From the NCBI GenBank assembly GCA_903952785.1, contig CAJBHC010000079.1, forward strand, positions 1-33,042: a stretch of 33,042 nucleotides of DNA, written 5' to 3'. Made by a program: the position numbers and the translations under genes. This DNA comes from an uncultured bacterium. GTDB taxonomy: Bacteria > Patescibacteriota > Minisyncoccia > Phycocordibacterales > CAIZLB01. Of the stretch, positions 8,743 to 28,518 are shown in pieces. Position 1 is the first letter of the stretch; the number at the start of each line of letters is the position of its first letter. The notes under the pieces were generated by a model that saw nothing but the letters and a program-made list of their open reading frames with translations, searched no databases and was not told the DNA's origin.

Positions 8743-8811
8743 ATTGCTAAATATTATACCCCCTGCTTTTTTAAAAGAAACTTGAAGAAAAACCAAAAGT
8801 ATGTTGATACC

Positions 8812-8820
8812 TGTGGATAA
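8812..8820. promoter_or_regulatory. Consensus DnaA box upstream of dnaA
   Basis: TGTGGATAA on the plus strand equals TTATCCACA on the dnaA strand. It lies 70 nt upstream of the preferred dnaA ATG. A TATAAT box sits at 8758-8753 (minus). Confidence 0.5.
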
Positions 8821-8919
8821 CTCATTTACAATTTCCAAAAGTGTTTTTTGATTTTTCTACTCAATAGAATAGGTTGGTGTGAGTTTACAAAAAAACAAAA
8901 ATGATGTAATATCCTTGTT

Positions 8920-9054
8920 ATGTCGCAAACATACCAACCAAACAAAAGAAAAAGAGCAAAAACTCACGGTTTTCTTGTTAGAACCGCCACTCATGGTGGA
9001 CGCCGTGTTCTAGCTGCTCGTCGAGCAAAAGGTAGAAAGAAGTTGTCTGTATAG
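8920..9054 (+). CDS. rpmH: 50S ribosomal protein L34 (missing from the ORF track)
   Basis: Hand translation: [44 protein letters not shown], then TAG. This fits the L34 consensus and the rpmH-rnpA-yidC order. Confidence 0.95.
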
Positions 9055-9096
9055 TCTCGCTTGATTTGGTGTTAAACACCTAGAATAAAGCCATTT

Positions 9097-9474
9097 ATGA
9101 CCATTAAAAGCCTCTCTTCCCTGCAAATTGCTTCGATAATGAAAAAAGGTAAAGCCTATAATTCAGGCTTTTTTCTTTTAAAAACACTAGACATTCCACT
9201 TAAAATGGGTGATGAGGTAACGAAATCAGTTGTTTTTGGAGCATTCATTTCTTCGAAAAAGGTCTTTGTAAAGGCGGTTGACAGAAACAGGGCCAAAAGA
9301 AGGCTAAAAGAAGCTTTTTTAAAGGCTGTAGCGGAAATAGAGGTAAATAATTTAGAGGTCCAAATTCCTTGTTTTGTTATTTTATCAAAAATAGATGCTG
9401 TTAAGGTTGATTTTAAGGATGTTGTTAATGATATAAAGCAAATTTTATTAAAAAATTATATAATAGGACAATGA
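9097..9474 (+). CDS. rnpA: Ribonuclease P protein component
   Basis: RNRAKRRLKEAF (RNR motif), 125 aa, downstream of rpmH. Its TGA stop overlaps the yidC ATG (ATGA). Confidence 0.9.
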   Translation: MTIKSLSSLQIASIMKKGKAYNSGFFLLKTLDIPLKMGDEVTKSVVFGAFISSKKVFVKAVDRNRAKRRLKEAFLKAVAEIEVNNLEVQIPCFVILSKIDAVKVDFKDVVNDIKQILLKNYIIGQ

Positions 9475-10208
9475 TATCAAATTTTTTTAGTGTTACATTT
9501 TATAATCCACTATACAACGGCTTAGTTTTTATAATAAACCATACACCAGGTGCTGATTTGGGTGTTGCTGTTATAGTTTTTACTTGTATTGTTAAGTTTG
9601 TTCTTATTCCCCTTTCCAAGAGTTCTGTTGTTACACAACTAAAAATGAAGGCCTTGGAGCCTGAATTAAGTAAAATAAAGGAACAGTATGCAAGCAACAA
9701 GGAAGAGCAAGCTAGAAAGATGTTTGAATTCTATAAAGTAAACAAACTAAACCCTTTTTCAGGTATTGTTTTGTTGTTAATTCAACTTCCAATTATTTTA
9801 TCTTTAGCTAGTATCTTTTATACATCAGGATTACCTAATATAAATGCTAATATTTTATACAGCTTCATCCCCAATCCACAAACAGTCAACACTTTCTTTT
9901 TGGGCCTTTTAGATATAACAAAAAAGAATATTTGGTTAAGTATTATAGTTGGTGTAACTCAGTTTATACAGATAAGATATTCTGTTCCAGCTTATAAATC
10001 AACAGGAAAGACTGGAAAACAAGAAGATTTTGCTAAAAGTATGAACGTTCAAATGAGATACACCATGCCTGCAATAGTTTTTCTTATTTCATTTAGCTTA
10101 ACTTCAGCTATCTCACTTTATTGGATTACCTCAAATATATTTGCTATTGCTCAGGAGGTTTATTTTAGAAAAACAGTCAAGAAGGATTTAGAGGAAAAAG
10201 GTATATAG
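9471..10208 (+). CDS. yidC: YidC/Oxa1-family membrane protein insertase (short form)
   Basis: 245 aa with multiple hydrophobic segments. Motifs: KMKALEPELSKIKEQY, YKVNKLNPFSG, LLIQLPI. Conserved position after rnpA. Confidence 0.85.
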   Translation: MISNFFSVTFYNPLYNGLVFIINHTPGADLGVAVIVFTCIVKFVLIPLSKSSVVTQLKMKALEPELSKIKEQYASNKEEQARKMFEFYKVNKLNPFSGIVLLLIQLPIILSLASIFYTSGLPNINANILYSFIPNPQTVNTFFLGLLDITKKNIWLSIIVGVTQFIQIRYSVPAYKSTGKTGKQEDFAKSMNVQMRYTMPAIVFLISFSLTSAISLYWITSNIFAIAQEVYFRKTVKKDLEEKGI

Positions 10209-10268: not shown

Positions 10269-11756
10269 TTATCTTGTGGAGGTGGCTGTTGATGTTGCTT
10301 TTGCTTTTGCTTTTGCTTTTGCTTTTGTACTAGTGCTCATTTTTGAAGAAGAATTTTTGATTGATTTTGTTGAGGAGGTGGAAGTTGCTTTTTGAGGTTT
10401 TTCTATTTGTAGACCCCATAAACTAAGGTCCTTTTTGTTTGTAAAAATTAAATAATCCTCGTTTTTATTAAGTATTGGATTAACAACATCTATCCCTTCT
10501 TTAACAGAATTCTTAATAACATAAACAAGTTTGTTTTCCATTGTTTCTGTGTTTATTTTCCAAACATTATCATTAAAGAATACCAACCCTTGATACCATG
10601 CATCTGGATATGGTGCATAAACTATAGACTCGCCAGCAGAACAAAATAGTGTGTTTTTTTCTAAAATAGACCACACACACTTTTCTGGCATTGTTCTTAT
10701 ATAAATATCTTTACTGGATTGTGTTTTAAGATTCAAAACACTAAGTTTCATAGATCCTTCAATACTTTCTCCAACTAAAACATTTAATCCGTCTGGTGAA
10801 ACTAGCGTTGTTAGGCCCGCCTGACCCCCCGTGAGTCTTTTAAAGACTTTATTTTTGATGTTAATAGAATAAGCAAAACCCTCTGAATATGCTGATGGTT
10901 TGGTGTTTAGTATAAGGGTGTCTTTGTTTGGATAAGATAATAACCACTCTCTAAATGGAGATTTATAAACATTGAAAACGCCAGTTCCATCCAATCTGCT
11001 TATGTTTATTGATGAACCCACACCTTTTTGTTCTGTATAATATGCAAAGTAGTCTTTTTCAGGCGACAAAACAACAGATAACAGATTGTAAGGAAGCTCC
11101 TTTGTTTTAAGTGACATTATTGTTGATGTTGGTGTATCAAGGGATGATGTTCCATATCTTGTTTGAATAACGTCTGAATTACCAAGAAGACCTCTCATTA
11201 ATACATTATTGCCTTTTTTATCAAAGAAAGCCTCATTTATTCTAGTATATGTTGAGTTTGTAATTCTCTCGTTTGTGTTTGTTGAGGATGCGGTTTCGTA
11301 TATTTTACCAGTTCCCCTCTCTATGTATCTAATTTTTTCTTCTTGACCTAAAATCTTTGGTTTTATAACTGTTGTTTTCTTGTTTTTACTTGAGGAAGAT
11401 GTTGAGGCGGTGGTTGTTCCTGTGTATGTTGGTGTCGATGAAGCAACAATATCCCTGATTACAAAATCAGCGCCAGATATTGGACCTGCAGTAATCATCC
11501 TAAGGGCAGGCGTTTTTGGGGTTGTGGTTGATGTTGGTTTGTCTATTGTGTTGTTATCTTGGTTTTCAACACTGTTTGTATTGTCTGATGGAAGGTCTGT
11601 TCTAACATTACCAACTCCCCCAAAAATGGTTTTGTCAGTTGGGGTTGACTCTATGTTTTTTGTAGATTGTTGGGTGTAAAAATATATACCAGAAACAACA
11701 CCAACACCAATGCTTAGAATTATTAATATTAATATTGTGAGTTTTGTTTTAGACAT
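10269..11756 (-). CDS. Signal-anchored protein: Ser/Thr-rich stalk, putative PD40/TolB-like beta-propeller, (KA)n tail
   Basis: N-terminal TM LTILILIILSIGVGVVSGIYFY, then a long S/T-rich segment. SPDG-type repeats (LSPEKDYFAY, VSPDGLNVLV, NEDYLIFT) suggest PD40 blades. C-terminal KAKAKAKAKA. The fold call is by eye only. Confidence 0.6.
   Translation of the reverse strand: MSKTKLTILILIILSIGVGVVSGIYFYTQQSTKNIESTPTDKTIFGGVGNVRTDLPSDNTNSVENQDNNTIDKPTSTTTPKTPALRMITAGPISGADFVIRDIVASSTPTYTGTTTASTSSSSKNKKTTVIKPKILGQEEKIRYIERGTGKIYETASSTNTNERITNSTYTRINEAFFDKKGNNVLMRGLLGNSDVIQTRYGTSSLDTPTSTIMSLKTKELPYNLLSVVLSPEKDYFAYYTEQKGVGSSINISRLDGTGVFNVYKSPFREWLLSYPNKDTLILNTKPSAYSEGFAYSINIKNKVFKRLTGGQAGLTTLVSPDGLNVLVGESIEGSMKLSVLNLKTQSSKDIYIRTMPEKCVWSILEKNTLFCSAGESIVYAPYPDAWYQGLVFFNDNVWKINTETMENKLVYVIKNSVKEGIDVVNPILNKNEDYLIFTNKKDLSLWGLQIEKPQKATSTSSTKSIKNSSSKMSTSTKAKAKAKAKATSTATSTR
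10297..10326. repeat. Hexanucleotide microsatellite (GCTTTT)x5 inside the 3' end of the CDS
   Basis: Five perfect tandem copies encode (Lys-Ala)5 on the minus strand. The unit length keeps the reading frame. Confidence 0.95.
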
Positions 11757-11760
11757 TGAT

Positions 11761-12513
11761 TTAAGGTTTTATTTCGGTTTTTTGGAATATATCTCCTGAT
11801 CCGTTGTTAACCAAGGCTGGGTTGATTGTGTAAAGTAGAACATATGAAAATAATGCTATAAAAAGACCTGCAAAAGCGGCGTTTATTTTTTTTCTACCAG
11901 AATCTGTTCCTTGTATTGTGTCGGTTGTTGCCAATTGAATTCCCCCAAAAGATATCATTACAATAGATAGACCTATTGCCGCCATTACACCAAGTCTGTA
12001 GACTTTAAAGAAAAATGGACTTAATCCATTGGAAATATCAAATTTTTCTACAACATTTTTTCCACTACCTGTTTTGTCTCCAATTAATCCATTGAGTGGT
12101 GCAAGTAAACAATAATTCCATTTTCCTTTTGAGGGTGAAATACCACAAGACTCAGGGTTTGGAGGTTCCTGTTGATCTAACATAGCTTGCGTTTGTTGTC
12201 CTGGGGTTATGACTGGAGATGGGGCTGTTGAAAAACCAGGTGTCCAAGATGGTACGGGAGCACTGTTGTTTATTTGAGATGGGTTCGTGTTAGAGACGCC
12301 TGTTGGAATATTCCAATTAGTTTCATCCTCGGCATAAAACGGGAAAGATTGAGAAACGCCATTTTGTGGGGGTAAATCAATTATAACATCTTCAGCTTGT
12401 GTTACTTTCACTGAGCCCACTATTAAAAACGAGTAACCAAACAAGGATATAATAATAAGTAAAGATAAAATCTTTTTATTCCAATCAATAAAATTGTTAT
12501 TAAAAATATTCAT
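11761..12513 (-). CDS. TrbC/VirB2-like type IV secretion pilin (CPR/Gram-positive T4SS_pilin type)
   Basis: Signal anchor with VTQA-ED cleavage-like site, then a Pro-rich spacer. The C-terminal module reads CLLAPLNGLIG ... two hydrophobic helices (LGVMAAIGLSIVMISFGGIQL and AAFAGLFIALFSYVLLY) ... TINPALV. From memory this matches the Pfam T4SS_pilin family. I prefer the ATG at 12513 over the TTG at 12564. Confidence 0.6.
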   Translation of the reverse strand: MNIFNNNFIDWNKKILSLLIIISLFGYSFLIVGSVKVTQAEDVIIDLPPQNGVSQSFPFYAEDETNWNIPTGVSNTNPSQINNSAPVPSWTPGFSTAPSPVITPGQQTQAMLDQQEPPNPESCGISPSKGKWNYCLLAPLNGLIGDKTGSGKNVVEKFDISNGLSPFFFKVYRLGVMAAIGLSIVMISFGGIQLATTDTIQGTDSGRKKINAAFAGLFIALFSYVLLYTINPALVNNGSGDIFQKTEIKP

Positions 12514-12576
12514 TACTAATATAATACAACAAATAAGGTTTGATGTATATTTAAATATCACCAACCTTATAAATAT

Positions 12577-13774: not shown

Positions 13775-14269
13775 CTACTTCTTTATCATAGACATTGCTT
13801 TTTGCACTGCGTGTGACGATTCCGTGGCGCCCTCTTGATCTTGTCCACCACCCCAAACCATAGGGCCAACATTTAGAATTACAGCCAAGGTAAAGGCGGG
13901 AATTATACTTATCGCTGGAATAAATTCAACCAAATCACAGCTGCCAAATTTCATTATGTTTTTAAAATGAAATTTAACACCAAGTTTCCAGTACAAAAGA
14001 AGTAATGATACAGTCCCTATAAACCACCCAATAAAAGGAATTACACTAATTACATCTAAAACAATACCAAGCACGATCGACAACAAAAAAACCTTTATTG
14101 TAACCCGCTTCTCACCTTGGCTTTCGCTACCAAAAACAACACCTTCATTATCCCCCTCATCGTCCTCTTCATCAAAATCATCATCCTCAAGGTCTTTTGT
14201 CAAAGAATTCCGACCAAGATATCTTTTGTTGGAGAGTTTATATTGACTTTCTGCTTGCTTTTCGTTCAT
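13775..14269 (-). CDS. Small membrane protein with acidic N-terminus, unknown function
   Basis: 164 aa. DDDFDEEDDEGDNEG is followed by 3-4 hydrophobic segments (VFLLSIVLGIVLDVISVIPFIGWFIGTVSLLLLYW, IPAISIIPAFTLAVIL). Directly downstream of VirB4. Confidence 0.7.
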   Translation of the reverse strand: MNEKQAESQYKLSNKRYLGRNSLTKDLEDDDFDEEDDEGDNEGVVFGSESQGEKRVTIKVFLLSIVLGIVLDVISVIPFIGWFIGTVSLLLLYWKLGVKFHFKNIMKFGSCDLVEFIPAISIIPAFTLAVILNVGPMVWGGGQDQEGATESSHAVQKAMSMIKK

Positions 14270-14361
14270 TACATATATATTAACAGACTACACAATAATA
14301 AAAAAGCCTTTTCTTAAAAAAGCTTTTTTACTAAACATACAAAAATCCGCCTGTGCCCGGT

Positions 14362-16209
14362 TTAAATACTTCTCTTTAAATTCTCCATTTCAGTAGCTCT
14401 CTGCTCAGCTAATTCAGCCTTTTCTTTCTTTATTTGCAAAACTTCAGATGGTTTTGATGTAATAATTTGGTTTTCTGTATATGAAGCAATAACTTTAATA
14501 GCAACGTGTTTAAGGCCGGCAAAGAACATTCCCTCTCCAACATCGGACTCAAGAAGAAGGTATTTTTCCTCATCAGTTAAATTAAAAGTTTTTTGAACAA
14601 TATCAATTGACGATGGGGACTGTTTTAACAAAATCTGAATAGATGAGTTGGAAATAATTGGTAGTCCATAAGGAGATTTTAGAAAGTCTTCAACGTCTTG
14701 TGTAATTGTGGCTAGCCCTAAATAATATTTTCTACCTCTTTTTGCTAATCCAAGTAGGAATGAGGCCGTATCTTCAGACTTCATCAAATACCACGCCTCG
14801 TCAATAACAAGCAGTCTCTTTTTTAATTCCTTTCTAATAGCATTCCAAATATAGTGCATAACAATGTACATCGCAACCGGCTTTAGCTCCTCCTCCATAT
14901 CTCTGAGTGAAAAGACAACAAACTTTTTATTGATATCAATATTTGATGGCCTGTTAATGAAACCAGCCCATGTTCCCTTTGTATATTTAGTTAATCTCTG
15001 AGCCAGTGATTCACCTCCTTCCATTCCGCCCAACACAAGCTCAAAATCAGACATTAGTGGAGGTTCAGCTGCGGCAAAGTTAGACTCAGGGGTAATATCC
15101 TTAAGGGCATAGGTTTCTGTGATGGCTCTGTCCATGACAGCATCTTCCTCTGGAGTAAGCCCTCCAAGCATTATTCTAAACAATCCAACAAGGTTGATGA
15201 TGTTTGAACGTAAAACATCCGCTGAAGACTCACCCTCTCTTGGAACTGGTAAATCAAATGGATTGATATGGTGCTCTGATGTAAGGGAAATATTAAAATA
15301 TCTTCCTCCTGTTGCTTCTGCTAGGTATTCATACTCTCTTTCTGGGTCAAGAACTATTACATCTGTATCAAACATCATTGATCTGATAATTTCTAGTTTT
15401 GTTTGATATGACTTACCAGATCCTGCTTTTGCAAAAGTTACGGAATTGTAGTTTTCTAGGGAAAATCTATCAAAAAGTATTAAACTTGAGTTGTGTCTGT
15501 TGATTCCGTACAAAATTCCCTTGTCAGATGTAAGGTCAAAGGAGATGAAGGGAAAAATGCTGGACAGTGGCTCTGAGTTTAGTTTTGAGTGAACCCCCAA
15601 TTTATCTTCCCCAATAGGAAGAACACTCTGAAAACCTTGCTCCTGTTGGAAAAGGGCTGGTTTTATAAAAACCAAGTTTGATTCAAGTATTGATTTAATC
15701 TCAGACTCTATTTTGTCCAATTCCTGCTCGTTTTCTCCGTAGATAGACAAGTATAGCCCCACATCAAAAAGTCTCTCCTGTGCCTGTTGTAGCTTGTCTC
15801 GTAGCTCTTCTAGATCTTGATAGGCGGTGTCTAACTTTGGGTCTCTAACTAATCCTTTTGTCTCTCTTGTGCTAATGTCAACTTCAATGTCTGCAACTTT
15901 TTTTGTAAACTGTCTAAGAATTGTTGAAGTATCAATTGGGTGTATAAAAATTGATATATCAAAAACCTTGTCTAGGTTGATTATTGGAGAAAACCAATTT
16001 GCCGACAAAAATCTCGGATAGGAAATAACAAAGAATGTTCTAACTATCTTCTCCCCAAGGTTTATTGTTTTAGGGCTAATTTTAAGACCAGAAGGAGCAA
16101 TAATGTCCTGTAGTTCCAAAACACCAGACTGATATATTTCTTTTGGTAGGATGGAGCTAATCGGAGAACTTTCCTGTGGTTTTGTTTTTAAAAAATCTAG
16201 TAAACTCAT
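14362..16209 (-). CDS. virB4: VirB4/TraC/ConE-type type IV secretion ATPase (lacks the usual N-terminal segment)
   Basis: Walker A FAKAGSGKSYQTK, Walker B LLVIDEAWYLM, VLDPEREYEYLAEATGG, HINPFDL, GLATITQDVEDF. The upstream motif VRTFFVISYPRFLSANWFSPI is typical of Gram-positive VirB4 proteins. Confidence 0.9.
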   Translation of the reverse strand: MSLLDFLKTKPQESSPISSILPKEIYQSGVLELQDIIAPSGLKISPKTINLGEKIVRTFFVISYPRFLSANWFSPIINLDKVFDISIFIHPIDTSTILRQFTKKVADIEVDISTRETKGLVRDPKLDTAYQDLEELRDKLQQAQERLFDVGLYLSIYGENEQELDKIESEIKSILESNLVFIKPALFQQEQGFQSVLPIGEDKLGVHSKLNSEPLSSIFPFISFDLTSDKGILYGINRHNSSLILFDRFSLENYNSVTFAKAGSGKSYQTKLEIIRSMMFDTDVIVLDPEREYEYLAEATGGRYFNISLTSEHHINPFDLPVPREGESSADVLRSNIINLVGLFRIMLGGLTPEEDAVMDRAITETYALKDITPESNFAAAEPPLMSDFELVLGGMEGGESLAQRLTKYTKGTWAGFINRPSNIDINKKFVVFSLRDMEEELKPVAMYIVMHYIWNAIRKELKKRLLVIDEAWYLMKSEDTASFLLGLAKRGRKYYLGLATITQDVEDFLKSPYGLPIISNSSIQILLKQSPSSIDIVQKTFNLTDEEKYLLLESDVGEGMFFAGLKHVAIKVIASYTENQIITSKPSEVLQIKKEKAELAEQRATEMENLKRSI

Positions 16210-16241
16210 GTTGTTTTAATTGTACGCTAAAATGCATAAAA

Positions 16242-16250
16242 ATTCTATCA
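16242..16250 (-). promoter_or_regulatory. Extended -10-like box TGATAGAAT upstream of virB4
   Basis: Minus-strand TGATAGAAT (16250-16242), 32 nt before the ATG at 16209. No Shine-Dalgarno sequence lies between them. Confidence 0.3.
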
Positions 16251-16266
16251 CGATTCTATTCTAAAT

Positions 16267-16929
16267 CTATTCTTGCCCTGACATATTGATTGGCTTCTCT
16301 ACTGTTCCTGGGTTGAATAATTTATAGAAAAACTCAATAATTTCCTCTGTGCCAAGCTCAGCTACCCTAACTCCACACCTTGCCAACCCTTGCTCCACCA
16401 CATCAACTCTTTGTTGTAGTTGGCTCTTATACTCTTCAAATTGTAAAAATTCCTCATTGTCAGCCTCTTTTTTGTCTTTCTTGCCGCCAAATAGTCCTGA
16501 AAACATCCCACCTTTTTGATTAATTATAGTTGGAGCGTAGGGTACCACAACAAAGAAGCTTTTTGTCATAATATTAACTGATTCTGTCAGATTTCTAATA
16601 AAATCCATATATTCTCTGGTTTGAACCTTCATCAGCTCACTTGCTTGAAACTTAATTCTATCATCTAACAAGTTAATATAAGGGCCAATATCCAACCTTC
16701 TTGATTGAACGAAGATTTGTATTGAAAAGTTGACTGAATTTAAGAAGTTTTGGAATTGATAAAGAACAGATTGTTGTTCTTCTTGGGATTTTAGGGCGAA
16801 GTTAATGGAAGAAGCAAGAAGAACAGCTCTCATTGAACCATCTTTTAGTATTACAATACCATCTCTAACCTCCTTTATTGGAACAAAGTCTTGTGTTGGT
16901 TTTGAGTTTATTTCTGTATTTGTTGCCAT
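16267..16929 (-). CDS. Stand-alone protein resembling the N-terminal domain of Gram-positive VirB4 ATPases
   Basis: TQDFVPIKEVRDGIVILKDGSMRAVLLASSINFALKSQEEQQSVLYQFQNFLNSVNFSIQIFVQSRRLD follows the xQxxIPxxxVxxGIIxxxDG...INFxLxSxEEQ...LNS...QI pattern I recall from the N-termini of Tn916 Orf16-type VirB4 proteins. No TM. Ends 57 nt before virB4, in a different frame. Confidence 0.5.
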   Translation of the reverse strand: MATNTEINSKPTQDFVPIKEVRDGIVILKDGSMRAVLLASSINFALKSQEEQQSVLYQFQNFLNSVNFSIQIFVQSRRLDIGPYINLLDDRIKFQASELMKVQTREYMDFIRNLTESVNIMTKSFFVVVPYAPTIINQKGGMFSGLFGGKKDKKEADNEEFLQFEEYKSQLQQRVDVVEQGLARCGVRVAELGTEEIIEFFYKLFNPGTVEKPINMSGQE

Positions 16930-16934
16930 TTTGA

Positions 16935-17375
16935 TTAATTATATATTATTTTGTCTTTATCACCACTCCTACTGTTTGTCTTTTCATTAATATCTAAACT
17001 CCACGCCAAATCCTTCAGTTTACTACTAGATACTCCAATGTTGATCTTGGGTGCCATTCTTGTTTTTTGTTCATCCAAGGACTGTTTAATTGGTTTTTCT
17101 AATTTTTTGTATGTATATAGTCTGTTTGAAAATATAAAAAAGAAGGCAGCTTCTAGAGTGTCAACAAAAGGCCTCTCGTTTACTTTGTAAAATGCTAGAG
17201 CAAGAGAGGTCATCATTATTGGGATGATTATAAGGAGAGTTACAAGAAATGGAAGTAGTTTATAGAACATGAAAGAAATACCAAGACCCCCAACTAAATA
17301 GACAAACTGTCTAAAGGTTAGGGCCCCAAATATTTTTTCATCCTCTTCAATAAATTGTGGTGTTTGATATCTCAT
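16935..17375 (-). CDS. PrgI-family (VirB3-like) small membrane protein
   Basis: EDEKIFGALTFRQFVYLVGGLGISFMFY plus a second TM LVTLLIIIPIMMTSLALAF. 146 aa, positioned just upstream of the VirB4 genes as in Gram-positive T4SS loci. Confidence 0.65.
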   Translation of the reverse strand: MRYQTPQFIEEDEKIFGALTFRQFVYLVGGLGISFMFYKLLPFLVTLLIIIPIMMTSLALAFYKVNERPFVDTLEAAFFFIFSNRLYTYKKLEKPIKQSLDEQKTRMAPKINIGVSSSKLKDLAWSLDINEKTNSRSGDKDKIIYN

Positions 17376-17388
17376 GTTGTCAAAAACA

Positions 17389-17397
17389 ATTATATCA
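17389..17397 (-). promoter_or_regulatory. Extended -10 box TGATATAAT, 13 nt upstream of the ATG at 17375
   Basis: Minus-strand TGATATAAT (17397-17389) inside the 107-nt gap. It would give a leader of about 6 nt. Confidence 0.4.
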
Positions 17398-17482
17398 CCA
17401 GTGGGCGATTCTCCAAAATCGTCCCTGGGAAGATTTTGCTAAATCTCGAAATTATTCTGCGTCCTCCTTTTTAATATTTTAA

Positions 17483-17839
17483 CTAAATATTTGTTTCGGC
17501 TTTGGTTGCAATGTCTCCAGAAGATTGAATTTTTTGTAAATTTTCTCTAATTGGAACAATAACAAGAAGATCAATATCTTTCACGATTTCCACAGCAGCA
17601 TCCTTTGATAAGTTCATTTTAGATTCCATTTCCGAGATTAAATTTGACGACTCTATCTCGCCAAAAATAAATCTTGCTAATAGATCCTCCAAAACCGCGG
17701 ATTGATCAATGTGGAGTTTGTGTTTTTTGGTTATTGTCTCAAGCCCTAAATCATAATCACTCGTTCTAATAGCTTGTTGAAAGTCTGGTGGAAGTCCATT
17801 AAATTTATTACCTTGTCTTTCTATTGAATTTGCTGTCAT
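17483..17839 (-). CDS. Small cytoplasmic-looking protein, paralogous domain shared with the upstream ORF
   Basis: 118 aa. GLPPDFQQAIRTSDYD...IDQS...IVKDIDLLVIVP aligns without gaps to TLPSDLKERLLMLDYE...KDEQ...IFEEIDRTILVP of ORF 17841-18581. The ATG lies 1 nt after that ORF's stop. Confidence 0.7.
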   Translation of the reverse strand: MTANSIERQGNKFNGLPPDFQQAIRTSDYDLGLETITKKHKLHIDQSAVLEDLLARFIFGEIESSNLISEMESKMNLSKDAAVEIVKDIDLLVIVPIRENLQKIQSSGDIATKAETNI

Positions 17840-17840
17840 T

Positions 17841-18581
17841 TTATTTTGTTTGTTCTCGGTATGGGTCTATTTTATAATATGTTGATTTTAAGGGCTGTGC
17901 AGATGGCTCTGTCAGTTTTCCATTGAGAATATCTTCTTTTGTTGGCATTACCATTGATGCTGGGTTAGATGATTGGATTGGTGGTGTGGGTGTGGTGGTT
18001 GGTGATGATGAAGCTGGTGTTGTTGTCTGGGTTGGTACAATCTCTGGTGTTGGTGGCGTTGTATTTATAACAGGTGTTGGAGTTTGTGTTTGGACAACAG
18101 TTAAGGGTGTGTGTGCTGGAATTGTGGATGGTGCAGGGGTTGGGTTTTCGATTTCTTTTAGAATGTCTTCTGCGGTTTCGGTGGTATCTGCGGATTGATT
18201 GCTTGATTGTTCATTTGAAGCTGTTTTAATTTCTTCCGTGGTTGGCTTTGTATTATCTGTACTAATTGTTTCTGGGGCACCCTGAAGATTGTTTGGCACA
18301 AGTATTGTTCTGTCTATTTCTTCAAAAATATGTTTTGTTTCTTCTTCGTCTTCGATGGCTTCTAGTATGAGTTCAAACATTTCTTGTTTGGAGGCGAAGC
18401 CTAGGGCAACAACCTGAGTTGCATAACTAATATCCCCGATTACCTGTTCATCCTTAATAGATTTAAAGTTAACTATTTTCTTAAAGTTGTCTTCGTAGTC
18501 GAGCATTAACAACCTCTCTTTCAAATCAGAAGGTAGGGTTTGTAATCTGTTTTCAAGTTCTACATTTGTGATATTAATCAT
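17841..18581 (-). CDS. Protein with the same N-terminal domain plus a Pro/Thr-rich tail, unknown function
   Basis: 246 aa. The N-terminal ~100 aa are paralogous to ORF 17483-17839. The C-terminal half is low complexity (TPAPSTIPAHTPLTVVQTQTPTPVINTTPPTPEIVPTQTTTP). Confidence 0.7.
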   Translation of the reverse strand: MINITNVELENRLQTLPSDLKERLLMLDYEDNFKKIVNFKSIKDEQVIGDISYATQVVALGFASKQEMFELILEAIEDEEETKHIFEEIDRTILVPNNLQGAPETISTDNTKPTTEEIKTASNEQSSNQSADTTETAEDILKEIENPTPAPSTIPAHTPLTVVQTQTPTPVINTTPPTPEIVPTQTTTPASSSPTTTPTPPIQSSNPASMVMPTKEDILNGKLTEPSAQPLKSTYYKIDPYREQTK

Positions 18582-18596
18582 GTCTCTTTTGTTTTA

Positions 18597-21255
18597 TTAT
18601 TTTGCTGGTTTATTTTCTACTATTGCACTGTTTGTTCCCCTTCTTGCGTCGTTTTCTTGCCATCTGTTGATATTTTTTTCTACCCCATCGGACGCTTTTT
18701 TAATTTTATTCCTTTGATTTTTAAGATGAAAATTTTCTTTTCCTAAGTCTTTCAGTCTATCCTCTATTATTTGAAGTGCTGGGTCACCAGCACTTAGACT
18801 CGCTGCTTGTGCTCTTAAGGCGGCTGCATTTTGGTTGTTTAAGGAAATTTGACTTGCGAGCCTTGTTATAGGTAGTGTTATTTTTTCCATAACAGTATTT
18901 AGCCCCTTTAGATCCATAGAAGATGACTTTTCCGGCGCATTTTCTATTTTTGTGATGAAATCAGAAATCTCTGCCGCGTCTTCACCCAACTCACCAAACA
19001 CCTCGTCTACTTCTTTTAGTGCTGACAATGCGTCTTTTTTGACCTTGTTTTCTATATCAGCAAAAGCACCTTCTTTTGCAGACATGCCTTTGCTAATAAT
19101 TTCTTGCATGGCCAGTTGTTTACCCTTGTTAAAGCTGTTTGAAGTAACTTCGTTGGTAAATTTATTTTTATTAATTCCAAAATATTCTCTCTGGGCTTCA
19201 CCCCCTTCTTTTTCCTGAGCCTTCTTTCGTTTTATAAACAGGTCATCTGTTTCCCCAGCTCTTCTTATTAATTCACCGGTTCTTGCTTTTTTGATTAAAT
19301 CTCCCCTTGCTTGGTACATTTTTTTATCAGCATCAACTCTTGATCTATAACTTGAACTACCTCCTAATTTAGACTGAGCTAGCTTGTCCGCTCCCTGAAG
19401 AAGCATTCCTCCACCAGGAAGTCTTGAAAGAATACTGCTTTTAGACGCCCTGTCTGCCAAATAGCTAACTGGTGCTGTGGCTCTGGTTGATGCAAACTTC
19501 TTCGCTTTTGTACCCAAACTTTTTCCCCAAGCATTCATTGTTTTTGCTCCAACAGTTCCAATTGATGCCGCCGCTGTCAAACACATTACAAGCATAAAAC
19601 ATAACAAGAAAAAGAAGAAAACAGAGCTCATTCCATAGTCTCCATTGTTTGAAAATATTGCAAGCAGGTCGTTTATCTTGTCGCCCCTACCCCAGACCAT
19701 TTTAAGGGTAACAAACATAAGCAACATATATACCGGCGCAAACAATACAGCACTATTTAATCTTTTCCACCATCTGCTGGATAAACCTGATGTTTGAGGA
19801 AGTATATTTGCAGCAAAAGCAATCGGTGAGGTTACCATTAGCATTATTAAAACAGCTGTTCTTGCTAAAAACATAAAGGATGCGGCAAAGAAAATAAAAG
19901 ACAACATCAGTATAAATATGGAACCACCTAATCCAACTAGCGTCATTTTCCAAGGGTTTAATCCGACCCCCGCTCCACCTTTTTCTGCAATTGCTCCTCC
20001 TGAGTTTACCGCGGGATTATTGCTTGTTTCACTCGCTGTACCCAAAGGAGATCCTCCCCCAGTATCTTTTGCAACACCCCAAATAGTTTGTAGACCAAGT
20101 GCATTCATTATACCTAAAGACAGTTTGTTGTTTGTTAGATTTGATGCACCAGCAGATGCATCAACCAAACCCTTACTAACCGCATTATCGCCAGCTTTTG
20201 CATCACTAGAATTTGCATCAGCCTCAATCATTATCTGTTTATAAAAAACAAGTGCCGTAATATTACTTACGTCTATTATAACCTTGGTAAAAAACATGCT
20301 GAAGTTTATTAAAATTGCAGCAATAACCAATTTCCCTAATAGTTTTTTGTATCCATAACTATCAACTTGTAATATTGTTGATATTGATATAAAAACTAGA
20401 ATCAATATAAAGAACAAATTTATAAGATTTCTAAATACTTCCCATCCATATTGTATTACTGAAAAACTGTTAACAAGGTCTGTCATCGAAAGTGTAAAAC
20501 TGATCGTAAAATCAAATAGTAGCGCCGCTACAAAGAGAACCCATGATGTTAAATACAAAACAAGATATGAGAGTATGGCAACACAGCCTGGTAAACTGAT
20601 GCTTGGTACTACTCCATCCCACTTCATACAGTAAATTTCCTCAGATGATCTTTCCGCTGCTTCTTTTGCGAGGCGGTCTCTAGTGGCTCTATCTGCTGAA
20701 GTATTAAAGTTTACCGCAGGGTCTTCTTTCCATGCAATTATTTTGTCTCTGATTTGTGTATCAATGTTGCTTGATAAATTTGTTTGTTCACTCCTCGATA
20801 GATTTGAGTTTGCAAGACCGTCACGCGTTTTTATTTTGTTTGTTATTAGGGGTAATATAGAATCATAAAGACGTCCTTGCGCAGCTAAATAAGCCGCTTT
20901 TGCTTCTTCTGTTCCTTGGTTTTCATAGTGTTTTCCATAATTATAATCTAAATTAGATCCATCTACGATTACGGCTGTAATCTGCCCCCCCCTCTTTTCG
21001 GACCCCTGATAATAATTCAGTCTCCAAAAGTATCATTCTGTCTGTACAGTTAAATTTTACATAATAATCTCCTGCTGGTAATGGACACCCCGCTGAGTCA
21101 GTGACATTTTCATCTACAACAACCTGAATTATAGGAATATTTGATCCATAGGCTTGTTTAGAATTCAAATTGCCAAGCAAAACCAAAACCACTAAAACCC
21201 CCACCACAAAAATTCTTTTAGTCGCTTTATTGTTTATAAAATTCATCAAGCTCAT
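18597..21255 (-). pseudogene. VirB6/ConG-like polytopic membrane protein with its reading frame broken at a G8 tract (frameshifted, phase-variable or mis-assembled)
   Basis: Piece 1 (21255-20953) is a 100-aa signal-anchored N-terminus. Piece 2's frame is open from 21032 to 18597, but its first ATG/GTG/TTG is at 20627, leaving 135 in-frame codons with no start. The frames swap at the C8 run 20985-20992 (G8 on the coding strand). Removing one G gives a single 885-aa ORF. The body has at least seven hydrophobic segments and a long Lys/Glu-rich C-terminal tail. Confidence 0.7.
20985..20992. repeat. Homopolymer C8 (G8 on the coding strand) at the frame break
   Basis: tctgCCCCCCCCtctt. It is the longest G/C run I noticed in this AT-rich window; the other runs I saw are 6 nt or shorter. 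Confidence 0.95.
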
Positions 21256-21394
21256 TTATCGATAATTATATATCATATTAATGAAAAATAATAATTTTTT
21301 ACACACAGTTCATTAATCTATTATTTTTGTGTAATTATCTTATTCTTTATGCCGATGGTGGAAGCTTTAAAACTTTGTTTATCTGTGGCAAATA

Positions 21395-23320
21395 TTAATC
21401 AACACTACCACCGTTTGCTGCGTCATATTCATAGAGTGACTTATACTCCCAGTTTATTCCAGTGATGCTATTTATTGATTTACCTGTGAGTTGCGTTACG
21501 TTTTGGGCAACATCTATACCAGTAAGAGGTCTTCCATCAAGCCATTTATATGAATTGCTAGCAAATCTATAGTTTGGTATGTAAAAATCTATAATATTTC
21601 TTGGGCAGATATTGCGGTCGTCTCCTGAATCGTCGATTCTAACCAAAACATCAGGGCCCCCAGCAAAGTGGACTACAGCTGGAATTCCTCCATTTGTATA
21701 GCCCATTCCTCTAAGTAGGGTAATTATTTTTGAACAAACACCAACGGAAACACTTGGAATTAGCGGAAAGGCTGCATTTCTTCCTATTCCTCTGTAGCTG
21801 TTTGCATCCCAAATTTTACGCTCGACATTAAATGCAGTTTTAAACTCATACCCATACATTGTAGAGTGGCCGTTTGGCATTGGAATGTATATTGAGTTTG
21901 CTCCAATTTGTGGTGTGCTAAATCCTTGTGATGTTTCACCTGAATATCCCGCTGTTGAGCTCGGTACATTAATTGCTCCTGGTGTGCCGTAATAATTTCC
22001 CTCCGATGGTTGTGAATAATAATTCGGTACAGCTGAATAATAATCAGATGGTCTGGCTTGAGACGCCTCTTTTCCTGTCACATCCTCCAAAACCTTACTT
22101 AAGGCTATTTTAATAAGGTTGTTTACAATAGCATCAACCATTTGATCAAATTTTTGTGCAGAAACAATTCTATCTTTTGGGATATTGAGGGTTGAAGATA
22201 GGGAGTCTGCAATAAGTACGCCCGGTGTTACAGTGTCGCATGGATTTTTATCACTCTCTGGTTTGGTGTTGTCCTTACATTTCTTATAACTCAAAAAACC
22301 TCTGTTTATTGTTAGATCAAGTGTTGCTGTGTTGTTTTTTACATTAATTCTTCTACTTAACTCGTTTCCTGCGTTTATATATGAATAATAAACGTTATTT
22401 TGAGGTTTTATTAGGGCAATCCAATCTGTTGGCGTTGTAATGGTGTATTTTCCAGATTGCATTGCTACCTGTTGCATTTGACTCAAGGAACATGAGTTTC
22501 TTTGTGCATAGTTGCCTGAGTAGCTTCCTGCCAAGCCGGTTGCAATAACAATTCTAAATGGGGCACATACGTTTATACCTGTTGAGTTGTAAGCTAGTTC
22601 ATGTATGAAAGATGCCGCTTCTCTGTCTGCAAGTTGCTTAAAAAATTGTTCTGGGTTTCTAACGAAGGCTGGGTTTCCTTTAAATCCTGAGTTCGCCCAT
22701 TGAATTGTTGAATTAACAATATAATCTATAATTGTATTTACAATACACCACGCTATATCATCCCAGCTAACACCAATTTGAAAGCCTCCAACAAAAGTTC
22801 CTGTACGTGCTTTTGTTTCAGCCTCAATATTCCCTGCTACCCCAGTACCCACAAGTGTAGCGTGAACTTTAGTTGCCAGTTCAACGGCACCACCCAGTAC
22901 TGTTGTAACCTTACTGACAGCTGCGGATACAGAGCTAGTTAAAAGCTTTGATAACAATTGGCTAGCAACACAGCCACTTATGTTTTGTGCTGACCCATAT
23001 TGGTTTTGGGGAGTTATTGCACCAGTGTTACTCCTGTTCGCTGTTGCATTGCTTGGGCCGACATCATCAACGGGAAGGGCTTTTGGAATACCAGATGCCC
23101 CAGCTTGAATATTTAGATTTGCTGCGCTTACACTGTCGCCTATTGCTTGATCATTGGCATCATTAAATAATGCTGGTACAGGAGGAAGCACTTGTGGTCC
23201 ATCATCGTCTTGTTGAGCTTGTGCTGTTTTTGTGTAACCAAGGGTGCAAACCACCATCAATATAATCACAAAATACTTAAACGTGAGCTCGGTTTTTTGA
23301 TTTTTAGTATTTTTGTGCAT
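21395..23320 (-). CDS. Large secreted protein, unknown function; C-terminus weakly resembles a double-psi beta-barrel (RlpA/3D-like) domain
   Basis: 641 aa. Signal peptide FKYFVIILMVVCTLGYTKTAQAQ. The C-terminal PAVVHFAGGPDVLVRIDDSGDDRNICPRNIIDFYIPNYRFA loosely matches the vVrvnDRGP...RiiDLS pattern of RlpA/3D domains. The domain call is low confidence. Confidence 0.75.
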   Translation of the reverse strand: MHKNTKNQKTELTFKYFVIILMVVCTLGYTKTAQAQQDDDGPQVLPPVPALFNDANDQAIGDSVSAANLNIQAGASGIPKALPVDDVGPSNATANRSNTGAITPQNQYGSAQNISGCVASQLLSKLLTSSVSAAVSKVTTVLGGAVELATKVHATLVGTGVAGNIEAETKARTGTFVGGFQIGVSWDDIAWCIVNTIIDYIVNSTIQWANSGFKGNPAFVRNPEQFFKQLADREAASFIHELAYNSTGINVCAPFRIVIATGLAGSYSGNYAQRNSCSLSQMQQVAMQSGKYTITTPTDWIALIKPQNNVYYSYINAGNELSRRINVKNNTATLDLTINRGFLSYKKCKDNTKPESDKNPCDTVTPGVLIADSLSSTLNIPKDRIVSAQKFDQMVDAIVNNLIKIALSKVLEDVTGKEASQARPSDYYSAVPNYYSQPSEGNYYGTPGAINVPSSTAGYSGETSQGFSTPQIGANSIYIPMPNGHSTMYGYEFKTAFNVERKIWDANSYRGIGRNAAFPLIPSVSVGVCSKIITLLRGMGYTNGGIPAVVHFAGGPDVLVRIDDSGDDRNICPRNIIDFYIPNYRFASNSYKWLDGRPLTGIDVAQNVTQLTGKSINSITGINWEYKSLYEYDAANGGSVD

Positions 23321-27465: not shown

Positions 27466-28518
27466 TTGGCCATAATTATATACCCATTTTATGTAAAAGC
27501 GGGTGTTTTAGATGTCTTTGGTTGGGTGAAATCTGGCTTTAGTTCAGCCTCTGCCGTTCACTCTGTTGCTCAAAATAAAGTTCTTTCTGCGAGTACTGTT
27601 GCTGTTGCTGAAGAAATACTTTCATCCCCTGAGCGAACAATTATTAATATGCCACTGTCAGAATCCGTGAACAGTCCAGAACCAAAAGAAAATCCAATGG
27701 CCTCAAATCAGGCTCTGGTTGATGGTTCAGCGTTTACAAACGAAAACAACGCGTTGGACGGTTCTTTTGATGACAACAACGAGAACTCCTCTGATCAGAT
27801 TAGTTTGTATACAGTTAGAAAAGGAGACACGGTTCCTTTGATTGCAAAAATGTTTGGAGTAACATCAAATACTATTTATTGGGCAAATGATTTAAAGTTC
27901 GGATCTCCAATAAAACCAGATCAAGTAATTGTTATTTTACCGATCACGGGTATTAAATATACTGTTAAAAAAGGCGACCATATAAATGATTTGGCAAAAA
28001 AGTTTAAGGCGGACGCTAATGAAATTGTTAGTTTTAACGATATTGATACAAATGAAGGCTTGACTGTCGGTCAAGAGATAATAATTCCAAACGCTGATCC
28101 TGAACCGACGGTTTCTAAATCATCAACTGTCGCAAAATCAAAAAACTCCTTAAAAAATATCGCAAAAAGCATTACTGGATATTTTAAGCGACCCGTTGCT
28201 GGAGGAAGAAAGTCGCAGGGAATTCATGGGCACAATGGAATAGATATTGCAGCCCCACTTGGGACGCCAATTTTTGCTGCTGCTAATGGTGTTGTCTTGA
28301 TTAGCAAGGGTTCTGGTTGGAATGGTGGGTATGGAGAGATGATTGTTATTAAGCATGCTAATGGAACACAGACCTTGTATGGGCACTTGAGTGCAACACT
28401 GGTTAGCGCTGGCGAGCGTGTTACCAAAGGGCAGCAAATTGGTAAGATGGGAAGTACGGGGCGTTCAACAGGGGTGCATCTGCACTTTGAAGTTCGTGGA
28501 GGTAAAAATCCGTTCTAA
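27466..28518 (+). CDS. LysM-LysM-M23 family peptidoglycan metalloendopeptidase
   Basis: Two LysM repeats (YTVRKGDTVPLIAKMFGV, YTVKKGDHINDLAKKFKA). M23 motifs HNGIDIAAPLGTPI (HxxxD) and GVHLHFEV (HxH). The TTG start at 27466 is the first canonical start, but it bisects a predicted TM helix (see findings). Confidence 0.9.
   Translation: MAIIIYPFYVKAGVLDVFGWVKSGFSSASAVHSVAQNKVLSASTVAVAEEILSSPERTIINMPLSESVNSPEPKENPMASNQALVDGSAFTNENNALDGSFDDNNENSSDQISLYTVRKGDTVPLIAKMFGVTSNTIYWANDLKFGSPIKPDQVIVILPITGIKYTVKKGDHINDLAKKFKADANEIVSFNDIDTNEGLTVGQEIIIPNADPEPTVSKSSTVAKSKNSLKNIAKSITGYFKRPVAGGRKSQGIHGHNGIDIAAPLGTPIFAAANGVVLISKGSGWNGGYGEMIVIKHANGTQTLYGHLSATLVSAGERVTKGQQIGKMGSTGRSTGVHLHFEVRGGKNPF

What the first reader, a model, noticed from the sequence alone, without database searches (positions are those of the whole stretch)
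20953..21035. G8 homopolymer sits exactly where the VirB6-like gene changes reading frame
Seen directly in the sequence: the ORF starting at 21255 encodes a signal-anchored 100-aa peptide and stops at 20955-20953, 30 nt after a run of eight G (C8 at 20985-20992 on the plus strand). The frame of the big membrane ORF (track 18597-20627) is open from 21032. It contains no ATG, GTG or TTG until 20627, which leaves 135 coding-looking, start-less codons (…QITAVIVDGSNLDYNYGKHYENQGTEEAKAAYLAAQGRLYDS…). Reading GAG GGG GGG with one G fewer joins the two frames (…LSGVRKEGG|QITAVIVDG…) into one 885-aa protein. That size fits ConG/VirB6-type proteins. A G8 run is unexpected in this AT-rich sequence, and the longest other G/C runs I noticed are 6 nt. 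There are three possible explanations:
- a homopolymer consensus error;
- slipped-strand ON/OFF phase variation of a core T4SS component, as in contingency loci of Neisseria, Haemophilus and Campylobacter;
- +1 recoding or transcriptional slippage.
Phase variation of a host-contact machine in a CPR-like bacterium would be new.
Basis: seen in the sequence. Interest (0 to 1): 0.72.

Follow-up and report, generated by a model that had tools for sequence, protein, structure and literature searches.

The report
One extra G breaks VirB6-like gene
A run of eight G's splits a secretion-system membrane-protein gene in this lake bacterium, but other assemblies of the same strain have seven G's and an intact gene, so this is a one-base slip (a real variant or an assembly error), not two genes or programmed recoding.

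Summary
C8 at 20985-20992 (G8 on the coding minus strand) is the only G/C run longer than 6 in the window. It lies in the 80-nt overlap between the 100-aa ORF (21255-20953) and the start-less open frame that carries the 676-aa ORF. Removing one G gives an 885-aa protein.

That exact 885-aa protein is in the public protein collection. It is encoded on three other contigs. In the one with DNA available (L001), the tract is G7 and the rest is 99.990% identical to the window over 20.7 kb, with one SNP and this one G. All 12 aligned orthologues (36-57% identity) are single ORFs of 820-946 aa, and the two relatives checked at DNA level lack the tract. So this is one VirB6-like gene carrying a +1 allele. 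The recoding and two-gene readings are rejected.

I cannot tell a real slipped-strand variant (slightly favoured) from a consensus error without reads. Adaptive phase variation is not shown. The tract is young, its codons are unremarkable, and virB6 is reported essential in a cultured relative. One intriguing point: another Patescibacteria genome (L026) has a G8 frameshift in the neighbouring TrsD-like secretion gene. Interest is low to moderate.

The parts
20985..20992 (-). Poly-G tract. It is G8 in this window and G7 in the in-frame allele of the same strain.
   Evidence: locate it. L001 has G7 at the homologous site (8329-8335), and this is the only gap in a 20,724-column alignment. In the G7 reading it encodes Gly89-Gly90 (GAG GGG GGG CAG).
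18597..21255 (-). The whole VirB6/TrbL-like gene. It encodes 885 aa when the tract is G7. The protein has an N-terminal anchor (residues 15-33), a roughly 180-aa hydrophilic domain that holds the tract, about 7 membrane helices (about residues 215-563) and a roughly 250-aa helical C-terminal region.
   Evidence: fusion; identical 885-aa protein P0115 encoded elsewhere; single-ORF orthologues; hydropathy; AlphaFold model, mean pLDDT 79; weak TrbL/VirB6 matches.
20953..21255 (-). 5' fragment ORF of the G8 allele. It is 100 aa: residues 1-90 are authentic and the last 10 are out-of-frame residues before the stop.
   Evidence: The N-terminus MSLMNFINNKATKRIFVVGVLVV is conserved with the N-termini of full-length orthologues P0002, P0003, P0004 and P0006.
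18597..21032 (-). Downstream reading frame of the G8 allele. It is open for 811 codons. The first possible start is ATG 20627, which gives the 676-aa ORF P0001. The 135 start-less codons upstream of that ATG are homologous to orthologue sequence.
   Evidence: The conserved LYDxxLPL and IYC motifs of the orthologues fall in the start-less part.
14362..17375 (-). Neighbouring secretion-system genes that give the context: PrgI/VirB3-like (16935-17375), TrsD-like VirB4 N-domain ORF (16267-16929) and VirB4 ATPase (14362-16209).
   Evidence: Pfam hits. The same order is seen in L001 and in relatives. The organisation matches that published for Patescibacteria (PMC12102498).

Best explanation
The two ORFs are one VirB6/TrbL-like membrane-protein gene of a Patescibacteria type IV secretion cluster. 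Its normal, in-frame form has a G7 tract encoding Gly89-Gly90 in the N-terminal domain between the first and second membrane helices, which I infer lies outside the cytoplasm.

The window carries a +1 allele (G8). This allele ends translation after 100 codons and leaves the membrane core without a start codon for 135 codons.

The most likely origin is slipped-strand mispairing at the homopolymer during replication. On this reading the G8 is a real null or strongly reduced-function variant present in the sampled lake population alongside the G7 allele. It was picked up as the consensus of this particular assembly.

What is shown:
- It is one gene.
- G7 is the in-frame allele and exists in the same strain.
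- The tract is the only indel difference between the two assemblies.

What is inferred:
- The extra G is in the DNA of the cells rather than introduced by sequencing or assembly.
- It arose by replication slippage.

What is not shown:
- That the switching is reversible at high rate or selected, which would make it true phase variation.
For: 1. The exact G7 fusion protein (885 aa, P0115) is in the protein collection and sits in the same 90% cluster as the window's 676-aa ORF. It is on three contigs, including a 63,128-nt contig (ERZ1426830) and a 36,594-nt contig (ERZ18659389).
2. L001 has G7. It differs from the window over 20,724 aligned columns by one gap (this G) and one substitution at window 28298, Leu/Trp in the LysM-M23 peptidase. 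The substitution suggests that the two contigs sample slightly different populations. None of the other homopolymers in the 20.7-kb overlap differs (the window as a whole has about 360 runs of 5 nt or more, seven of them A8/T8), so this is not a general homopolymer-error profile.
3. All 12 aligned orthologues are single ORFs of 820-946 aa with the same N-terminal anchor.
4. The AlphaFold model of the G7 protein places a beta-hairpin (strands 85-88 and 91-95) with the Gly-Gly at its turn directly across the junction. Block pLDDT there is 87 for residues 81-90 and 74 for 91-100.
5. In about 1.1 Mb of related loci, frameshifts at homopolymers are concentrated on G8 tracts. 2 of 10 G/C tracts of 8 nt or more are out of frame, against 0 of about 24 G/C7 tracts. 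About 1% of A/T runs of 7-10 were flagged (10 of 947), and I judge most of those to be gene-junction artefacts.
6. The apparent source dataset is Illumina NovaSeq 2x150 assembled with MEGAHIT. From general knowledge, a majority-level miscall of an 8-nt homopolymer is uncommon on that platform. PCR stutter is reported to be biased toward deletions, not insertions (PMC11878640).
Against: - No reads are available, so a consensus error cannot be excluded.
- The G8 allele is seen on one contig only, against three contigs for G7.
- virB6 and trsD are reported essential for growth in the cultured relative Ca. Southlakia epibionticum (PMC12102498). That makes a null allele at majority frequency biologically awkward.
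- Both out-of-frame G8 tracts found (window and L026) would be repaired by removing one G. Both appear to come from the same NovaSeq/MEGAHIT project. None of the other eight G/C tracts of 8 nt or more (all in frame) comes from a record carrying that project's naming. This pattern would also fit a platform-specific +1 G artefact.
Confidence: 0.5

Rival explanations
1. Technical artefact. The cells carry G7 and an intact gene, and the eighth G was introduced by library PCR, two-colour Illumina base calling or the assembler, so nothing biological happens at this site.
For: - Every other assembly of this strain on record has the intact 885-aa gene: three contigs against one.
- The gene family is reported essential in a cultured relative.
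- The second G8 frameshift found (L026) is also a +1 relative to the in-frame length. It comes from a bin with the same project naming (AlinenLipids_bin), sequenced on NovaSeq and assembled with MEGAHIT.
- One contig of that project (L005) ends in a 9-nt poly-G, a known two-colour artefact.
Against: - An 8-nt homopolymer is short for a majority-level Illumina miscall, and de Bruijn bubble merging keeps the better-covered path (general knowledge).
- None of the other homopolymers in the 20.7-kb overlap differs between the two assemblies.
- 0 of about 24 G/C7 tracts and 1 of 115 G/C6 tracts in related assemblies were flagged as possible frameshifts.
- The accompanying SNP suggests a distinct source population.
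- PCR stutter favours deletions.
Confidence: 0.38
2. Selected contingency locus. The poly-G tract is maintained because reversible G7/G8 switching turns a surface-exposed secretion-system component ON and OFF, as bet-hedging against phage, host defence or cost. This is a special case of the best explanation.
For: - The tract lies in the first 10% of the gene, in a fast-evolving domain that is probably extracytoplasmic.
- The VirB6-like protein is 46-66% identical to its closest relatives, while the adjacent VirB4 ATPase is 97-99% identical.
- A second secretion-system gene, TrsD-like, is frameshifted at a G8 in another Patescibacteria species.
- G tracts of 7 nt or more are enriched inside VirB6-like genes of 80 species. 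12 of 28 fall in 21% of the DNA, binomial p = 0.007.
Against: - The enrichment is explained mostly by a two-fold higher Gly-Gly density. The share of Gly-Gly encoded GGGGGG is 4.0% in VirB6-like genes against 2.7% in other genes, Fisher p = 0.13.
- The tract is absent from the two close relatives checked at DNA level, so it is young.
- Its codons are at chance expectation.
- It is the only tract in 33 kb.
- All 12 in-gene tracts in other species are in frame.
- Essentiality in a relative argues against a tolerated OFF state.
Confidence: 0.13
3. Programmed +1 ribosomal frameshifting or transcriptional slippage at the G run is the normal way the full-length protein is made from a G8 template.
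For: Homopolymers can support RNA polymerase slippage, so some full-length product from the G8 allele cannot be excluded (general knowledge). No direct evidence for this was found here.
Against: - An in-frame G7 allele of the same strain exists, so no recoding is needed.
- The site and the tract are not conserved in the two relatives checked at DNA level, and all aligned orthologues are plain single ORFs.
- I did not look for a stimulatory element.
Confidence: 0.03
4. Two genuine separate genes: a small secreted peptide and a 676-aa membrane protein.
For: Both ORFs were called as separate proteins in the public record of this contig.
Against: - There are 135 start-less codons homologous to orthologue sequence.
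- All orthologues are single ORFs.
- The invariant Cys209 lies just upstream of Met210, the only available start.
- The identical fused protein exists elsewhere.
Confidence: 0.01

Closest known systems
Homopolymer (poly-G/C) phase-variable genes of Campylobacter, Neisseria, Haemophilus and Helicobacter, and the glpK 7C tract of Mycobacterium tuberculosis
   Same: A coding poly-G tract of 7-8 nt lies near the 5' end of a gene for an envelope protein. A one-base length change switches between the full-length protein and an early stop. Two lengths are seen in near-identical genomes.
   Different: - No read-level or culture evidence of reversible high-rate switching.
- Only one tract in 33 kb.
- The tract is not conserved in related species.
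- No codon-level sign of selection for the tract.
- The gene is probably essential rather than accessory.
VirB6/TrbL family of type IV secretion inner-membrane proteins (TrwI of R388; PrgH/VirB6-like of monoderm and Patescibacteria systems)
   Same: A polytopic membrane protein encoded next to PrgI/VirB3-like, TrsD-like and VirB4 genes near the replication origin, as described for Patescibacteria. It gives weak TrbL Pfam matches, and its top structural matches are TrwI/VirB6.
   Different: - At 885 aa it is much larger than R388 TrwI, whose modelled chains are 260-272 residues.
- It has an added N-terminal anchored domain and a roughly 250-aa helical C-terminal region.
- Sequence and fold scores are below family thresholds: 16.6 bits against a cut-off of 25.9, and Foldseek E 0.33.
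Homopolymer frameshift pseudogenes and consensus errors in metagenome-assembled genomes
   Same: A single-base homopolymer indel splits a conserved gene in one assembly, while other assemblies of the same population have it intact.
   Different: The assembly shows no general homopolymer-error signature, because all other runs are identical between the two assemblies.

Membership tests
Simple-sequence-repeat phase-variable (contingency) locus | A homopolymer or short repeat lies within the coding region or promoter, and its length sets the reading frame or expression. | tested here: met
   G7 gives an 885-aa ORF. G8 gives a stop after 100 codons.
Simple-sequence-repeat phase-variable (contingency) locus | More than one tract length is observed among otherwise near-identical genomes of the same strain or population. 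| tested here: inconclusive
   G8 is in the window. G7 is confirmed in L001 at 99.990% identity and is implied by the identical protein on the other G7 contigs. These are assembly consensus sequences only, so an error in one assembly would give the same picture.
Simple-sequence-repeat phase-variable (contingency) locus | Reversible switching at high frequency, seen as mixed tract lengths within a population or culture. | not testable with these tools
   No reads or cultures are available. DNA pattern scans of the JGI metagenome and GTDB genome collections found no further copies.
Simple-sequence-repeat phase-variable (contingency) locus | The tract is maintained by selection: conserved across strains or species, over-represented relative to codon usage, or one of several such tracts in surface genes. 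| tested here: not met
   - The tract is absent at the orthologous site in L002 and L003, and the other aligned orthologues lack the Gly-Gly there.
- The GGGGGG count in the window is 3 against 1.7 expected.
- Across 80 species, use of GGGGGG for Gly-Gly in VirB6-like genes does not differ significantly from other genes, p = 0.13.
- It is the only G/C run longer than 6 in the window.
VirB6/TrbL (Pfam PF04610) | Sequence match to the family profile above the curated threshold. | tested here: not met
   16.6 bits, E = 0.0068, against a cut-off of 25.9 bits. 7 of 13 orthologues match at E up to 0.01, best 7.3e-5. Some homologues carry precomputed PF04610 or PF19590 hits.
VirB6/TrbL (Pfam PF04610) | A polytopic inner-membrane protein with at least 5 membrane helices. 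| tested here: met
   Hydropathy gives an N-terminal anchor plus about 7 hydrophobic segments between residues 215 and 563. The AlphaFold model shows long helices there with pLDDT of 85-95.
VirB6/TrbL (Pfam PF04610) | Structural similarity to solved VirB6 (TrwI of R388). | tested here: inconclusive
   The top five Foldseek PDB hits are all TrwI/VirB6-containing R388 entries. They are weak: E 0.33-1.6, probability 0.57-0.95, TM-score 0.37-0.42 on the target.
VirB6/TrbL (Pfam PF04610) | Encoded in a type IV secretion cluster with VirB4 and VirB3/PrgI. | tested here: met
   PrgI (E = 1e-9) and a VirB4-type ATPase (TraG P-loop, E = 4e-25) lie 1.2-4 kb downstream on the same strand. The synteny is conserved in relatives.
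Programmed ribosomal frameshift or transcriptional-slippage gene | The out-of-frame arrangement and the slippery site are conserved among orthologues. | tested here: not met
   Orthologues are single in-frame ORFs without the tract, and the same strain has an in-frame G7 allele.

The most novel reading that the evidence does not exclude
Patescibacteria (CPR) epibionts use short poly-G tracts to switch core type IV secretion components ON and OFF. The examples would be the VirB6-like gene here and the TrsD-like gene in L026. These would be the first contingency loci described in this radiation, acting on the machine thought to mediate host contact.
Probability: 0.12. Interest if true: 0.7.

Novelty: new member of a known kind. 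Interest (0 to 1): 0.3.

Why it matters
**Practical point.** The two ORFs in this record should be annotated as one 885-aa VirB6-like gene with a homopolymer frameshift. The intact allele exists in public data.

**Biological point.** If reads showed mixed G7/G8 lengths, this would be the first evidence that an ultra-small episymbiotic bacterium varies expression of its host-contact secretion system through a hypermutable repeat. That would bear on how these organisms handle phage pressure or host switching. The second G8 frameshift, in a neighbouring secretion gene of another species, makes the read-level check worth doing.

**If the reads show only G7.** The finding is an ordinary assembly error. 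It would also warn about G7-to-G8 miscalls in this widely reused lake metagenome resource.

Tried and rejected
- **DNA pattern scans.** I scanned for the tract flanks (TCAGGGGTCCGAAAAGA N5-14 CAGATTACAGCCGTAATCG) in the JGI metagenome and GTDB genome collections. Both gave 0 hits, so no extra copies were available to tabulate tract lengths.
- **Looking up the window's own record.** The 676-aa protein is not on record. Looking up the upstream 641-aa neighbour returned only the G7 contigs, collapsed into one place.
- **P0121, a possible parallel frameshift.** This 647-aa member of the P0003 cluster turned out to be truncated by a contig end.
- **Protein-guided scan of metagenome contigs.** It returned only distant relatives at 26-46% identity, with no frameshifts.
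- **Profile search of A1 against PDB sequences.** It gave only coiled-coil noise from the C-terminal region.
- **Promoter and terminator scan of 18400-21500.** Counts were at or below shuffle expectation, with no support for an internal promoter serving ATG 20627.
- **Internal start at ATG 20627.** A GAGGA motif lies 10 nt upstream of it. The neighbouring genes show no Shine-Dalgarno motifs, and those bases encode the conserved Glu-Glu of the EEIYC motif, so I did not count it as evidence for re-initiation.
- **Literature on mismatch repair in CPR bacteria.** The search gave nothing usable.
Full report
**1. The observation**

The minus strand reads ...TCA GGG GTC CGA AAA GAG GGG GGG GCA GAT TAC... 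with eight consecutive G at 20992-20985. A scan of all homopolymers shows this is the only G/C run longer than 6 nt in the 33,042-nt window, which is 35.2% G+C. The next longest are three C6 and three G6.

- The ORF from ATG 21255 encodes 100 aa and stops at 20955-20953.
- The other frame is open from 21032 and has no ATG, GTG or TTG until ATG 20627, where the 676-aa ORF begins. That leaves 135 start-less codons.
- Deleting one G gives a single 885-aa ORF. Adding two gives 886 aa.

So every factual element of the finding is correct.

The statistical claim is weaker. 19 of 100 dinucleotide-preserving shuffles of the window contain a G8/C8. The GGG-GGG codon pair occurs three times among 56 Gly-Gly dipeptides in the window, against 1.7 expected.

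**2. One gene, and the intact allele exists**

A search with the fused protein returned homologues of 660-1400 aa. The 12 closest that I aligned, at 36-57% identity, are all single ORFs of 820-946 aa. They share the N-terminal anchor (MKFINNKTTKKIFVVGVL...), the LYDxxLPL and IYC motifs that lie in the start-less part of the window's frame, and the membrane core.

The decisive result came from the cluster look-up. The 90%-identity cluster of the window's 676-aa ORF holds a second member of 885 aa (P0115), present on three contigs. Its sequence is identical to my G7 reconstruction.

The contig with DNA available is L001, a 36.6-kb scaffold from ENA analysis ERZ18659389, sample SAMEA6872936.
- It has G7 at the homologous site.
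- It aligns to window 8597-29320 at 99.990% identity.
- Across 20,724 columns there is one gap (the G) and one mismatch.
- The mismatch is at window 28298. It changes Leu278 (window) to Trp (L001) in the LysM/M23 peptidase gene.

**3. What the gene is**

- **Pfam.** TrbL/VirB6 gives a sub-threshold match: E = 0.0068, 16.6 bits against a cut-off of 25.9. 7 of 13 orthologues match at E up to 0.01.
- **Topology.** Hydropathy shows an N-terminal anchor (residues 15-33), a hydrophilic stretch of about 180 aa that holds the tract (Gly89-Gly90), and about seven hydrophobic segments between residues 215 and 563.
- **Structure.** An AlphaFold model from a 77-sequence alignment has mean pLDDT 79. It places a beta-hairpin (85-88 and 91-95) across the junction with the two glycines at the turn, so the G7 reading gives a coherent fold.
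- **Fold search.** The five best Foldseek matches in the PDB are all TrwI/VirB6-containing entries of the R388 system. They are weak: E 0.33-1.6, target TM-score 0.37-0.42.
- **Context.** Downstream on the same strand lie a PrgI/VirB3-like gene, a 220-aa ORF matching the N-terminal part of TraC/VirB4, and a 615-aa VirB4-type ATPase. dnaA, rpmH, rnpA and yidC follow within about 5 kb.

This is the arrangement described for Patescibacteria secretion systems: VirB4, TrsD, PrgI/VirB3 and VirB6, often near the origin. That paper also reports that virB6, prgI and trsD are essential in Ca. Southlakia epibionticum (PMC12102498).

The closest relatives in the species-representative genomes are lake bins named Loclat, Loc080925, MJ-time and AM-lipid. 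These names, together with the BUCK21 record name of L001, point to the stratified-lake dataset of Buck et al. 2021. That dataset used NovaSeq 6000 2x150 reads and MEGAHIT, with both single-sample assemblies and lake-wise co-assemblies (PMC8121793). That the window itself comes from this project is my inference.

**4. Which explanation**

*Two separate genes and programmed recoding are rejected.* The same strain has an in-frame allele. Orthologues are plain single ORFs. The tract is absent at the orthologous site in L002 and L003.

*What remains is a one-base length difference at a homopolymer.* It arose either in the cells or in the sequencing pipeline.

In favour of a real variant:
- None of the other homopolymers in the overlap differs between the two assemblies.
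- A substitution accompanies the indel, which suggests a slightly different source population.
- An 8-nt run is short for a majority-level Illumina error.
- PCR stutter is biased toward deletions.

In favour of an artefact:
- G8 is seen on one contig, against three for G7.
- A null allele of a probably essential gene reaching consensus frequency is awkward.
- The pattern described in section 5 below would also fit a platform artefact.

I put a real variant at about 0.5 and an artefact at about 0.38.

**5. Test for a wider phenomenon**

I tested every G/C run of 7 nt or more in 100 related loci (about 1.1 Mb) for whether a one-base change would merge ORFs.

- Only two tracts are out of frame: the window's tract and a G8 in L026 (AlinenLipids_bin-2449).
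- The L026 tract splits the TrsD-like gene into 142-aa and 95-aa ORFs.
- Removing one G there restores a 213-aa protein colinear with the window's 220-aa orthologue.
- In total, 2 of 10 tracts of 8 nt or more are out of frame, against 0 of about 24 G/C7 tracts.
- Both out-of-frame tracts would be repaired by removing one G, and both seem to come from the same sequencing project. This fits either real slippage or a platform-specific artefact.

G tracts of 7 nt or more are enriched inside VirB6-like genes: 12 of 28 fall in 21% of the DNA, p = 0.007. All of them encode Gly-Gly. The enrichment follows mostly from a two-fold higher Gly-Gly density. The share of Gly-Gly encoded GGGGGG is 4.0% against 2.7% in neighbouring genes, p = 0.13.

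So I find no solid evidence that the tracts are selected.

**6. Supporting context for a host-contact role**

Compared with the four nearest species, amino-acid identities are:

| Protein | Identity |
|---|---|
| VirB4 ATPase | 97-99% |
| TrsD-like ORF | 89-94% |
| VirB6-like protein | 46-66% |
| 246-aa protein downstream of it | 41-52% |
| 164-aa protein | 44-60% |

The frameshifted gene is therefore among the fastest-evolving in the cluster. That is compatible with surface exposure, but it is not evidence of phase variation.

**7. Verdict**

- The gene is a single VirB6-like gene whose in-frame G7 allele is on record.
- The window carries a +1 allele that is either a real slipped-strand variant or a consensus error.
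- Recoding is not needed.
- Adaptive phase variation is possible but unsupported. I estimate it at about 0.12-0.13.
- The matter can be settled by mapping the public reads.

Noticed in passing
L026 11135-11142 (CAIRYW010000010.1, AlinenLipids_bin-2449): A second G8 frameshift in a secretion-system gene of another Patescibacteria species. The TrsD-like / VirB4 N-domain gene is split into 142-aa (10739-11167) and 95-aa (11094-11381) ORFs. Removing one G restores a 213-aa protein colinear with window 16267-16929. The repaired protein is not in the protein collection.
   Followed up: partly
window 14362-16929 (minus strand); also L001-L019: VirB4 is encoded as two ORFs: a 220-aa ORF matching the N-terminal part of TraC/VirB4, and a 615-aa ATPase. 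They are separated by a stop in every locus examined (L001-L005, L007-L010, L013, L015-L019), sometimes in different frames. This is a conserved natural split. It probably corresponds to the TrsD homologue described for Patescibacteria in PMC12102498, and it is not a frameshift.
   Followed up: yes
window 13775-21255 compared with L002-L005: Evolutionary rates are very uneven within the cluster. VirB4 ATPase is 97-99% identical in amino acids to four other species. The VirB6-like protein is 46-66% identical, the 246-aa protein (17841-18581) 41-52%, and the 164-aa protein (13775-14269) 44-60%. Two further ORFs (10269-11756 and 11761-12564) have no match at all in those loci.
   Followed up: partly
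window 28298: This is the only substitution between the window and L001 in 20.7 kb. TTG (Leu278) in the window becomes TGG (Trp) in L001, inside the M23 peptidase domain of the LysM-M23 protein (27466-28518). I did not determine which state is ancestral.
   Followed up: no
80 species-representative loci L002-L081: 12 of the 28 G/C runs of 7 nt or more lie inside the VirB6-like gene, which makes up 21% of the DNA. All are G on the coding strand, encode Gly-Gly and are in frame. The cause is mostly the glycine richness of the protein. There is a non-significant excess of GGGGGG codon pairs.
   Followed up: yes
L005 position 1-9 (end of contig CAINHC010000001.1): The contig ends in a 9-nt poly-G (C9 in locus orientation). 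This is typical of two-colour Illumina poly-G read-end artefacts. It is a reminder that G-run artefacts exist in this dataset.
   Followed up: no
window 21265-21270 (minus strand): A perfect TATAAT lies 9 nt upstream of ATG 21255, and there is no Shine-Dalgarno motif. The neighbouring secretion genes also lack obvious Shine-Dalgarno sequences. This suggests a very short leader or leaderless translation. The consensus promoter scan did not report a matching -35 element.
   Followed up: partly
window 5958-10208: dnaN and dnaA are on the minus strand, and rnpA and yidC on the plus strand. They lie directly next to the secretion cluster, so the cluster sits at the replication origin. This matches the published observation for Patescibacteria secretion systems (PMC12102498).
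   Followed up: partly
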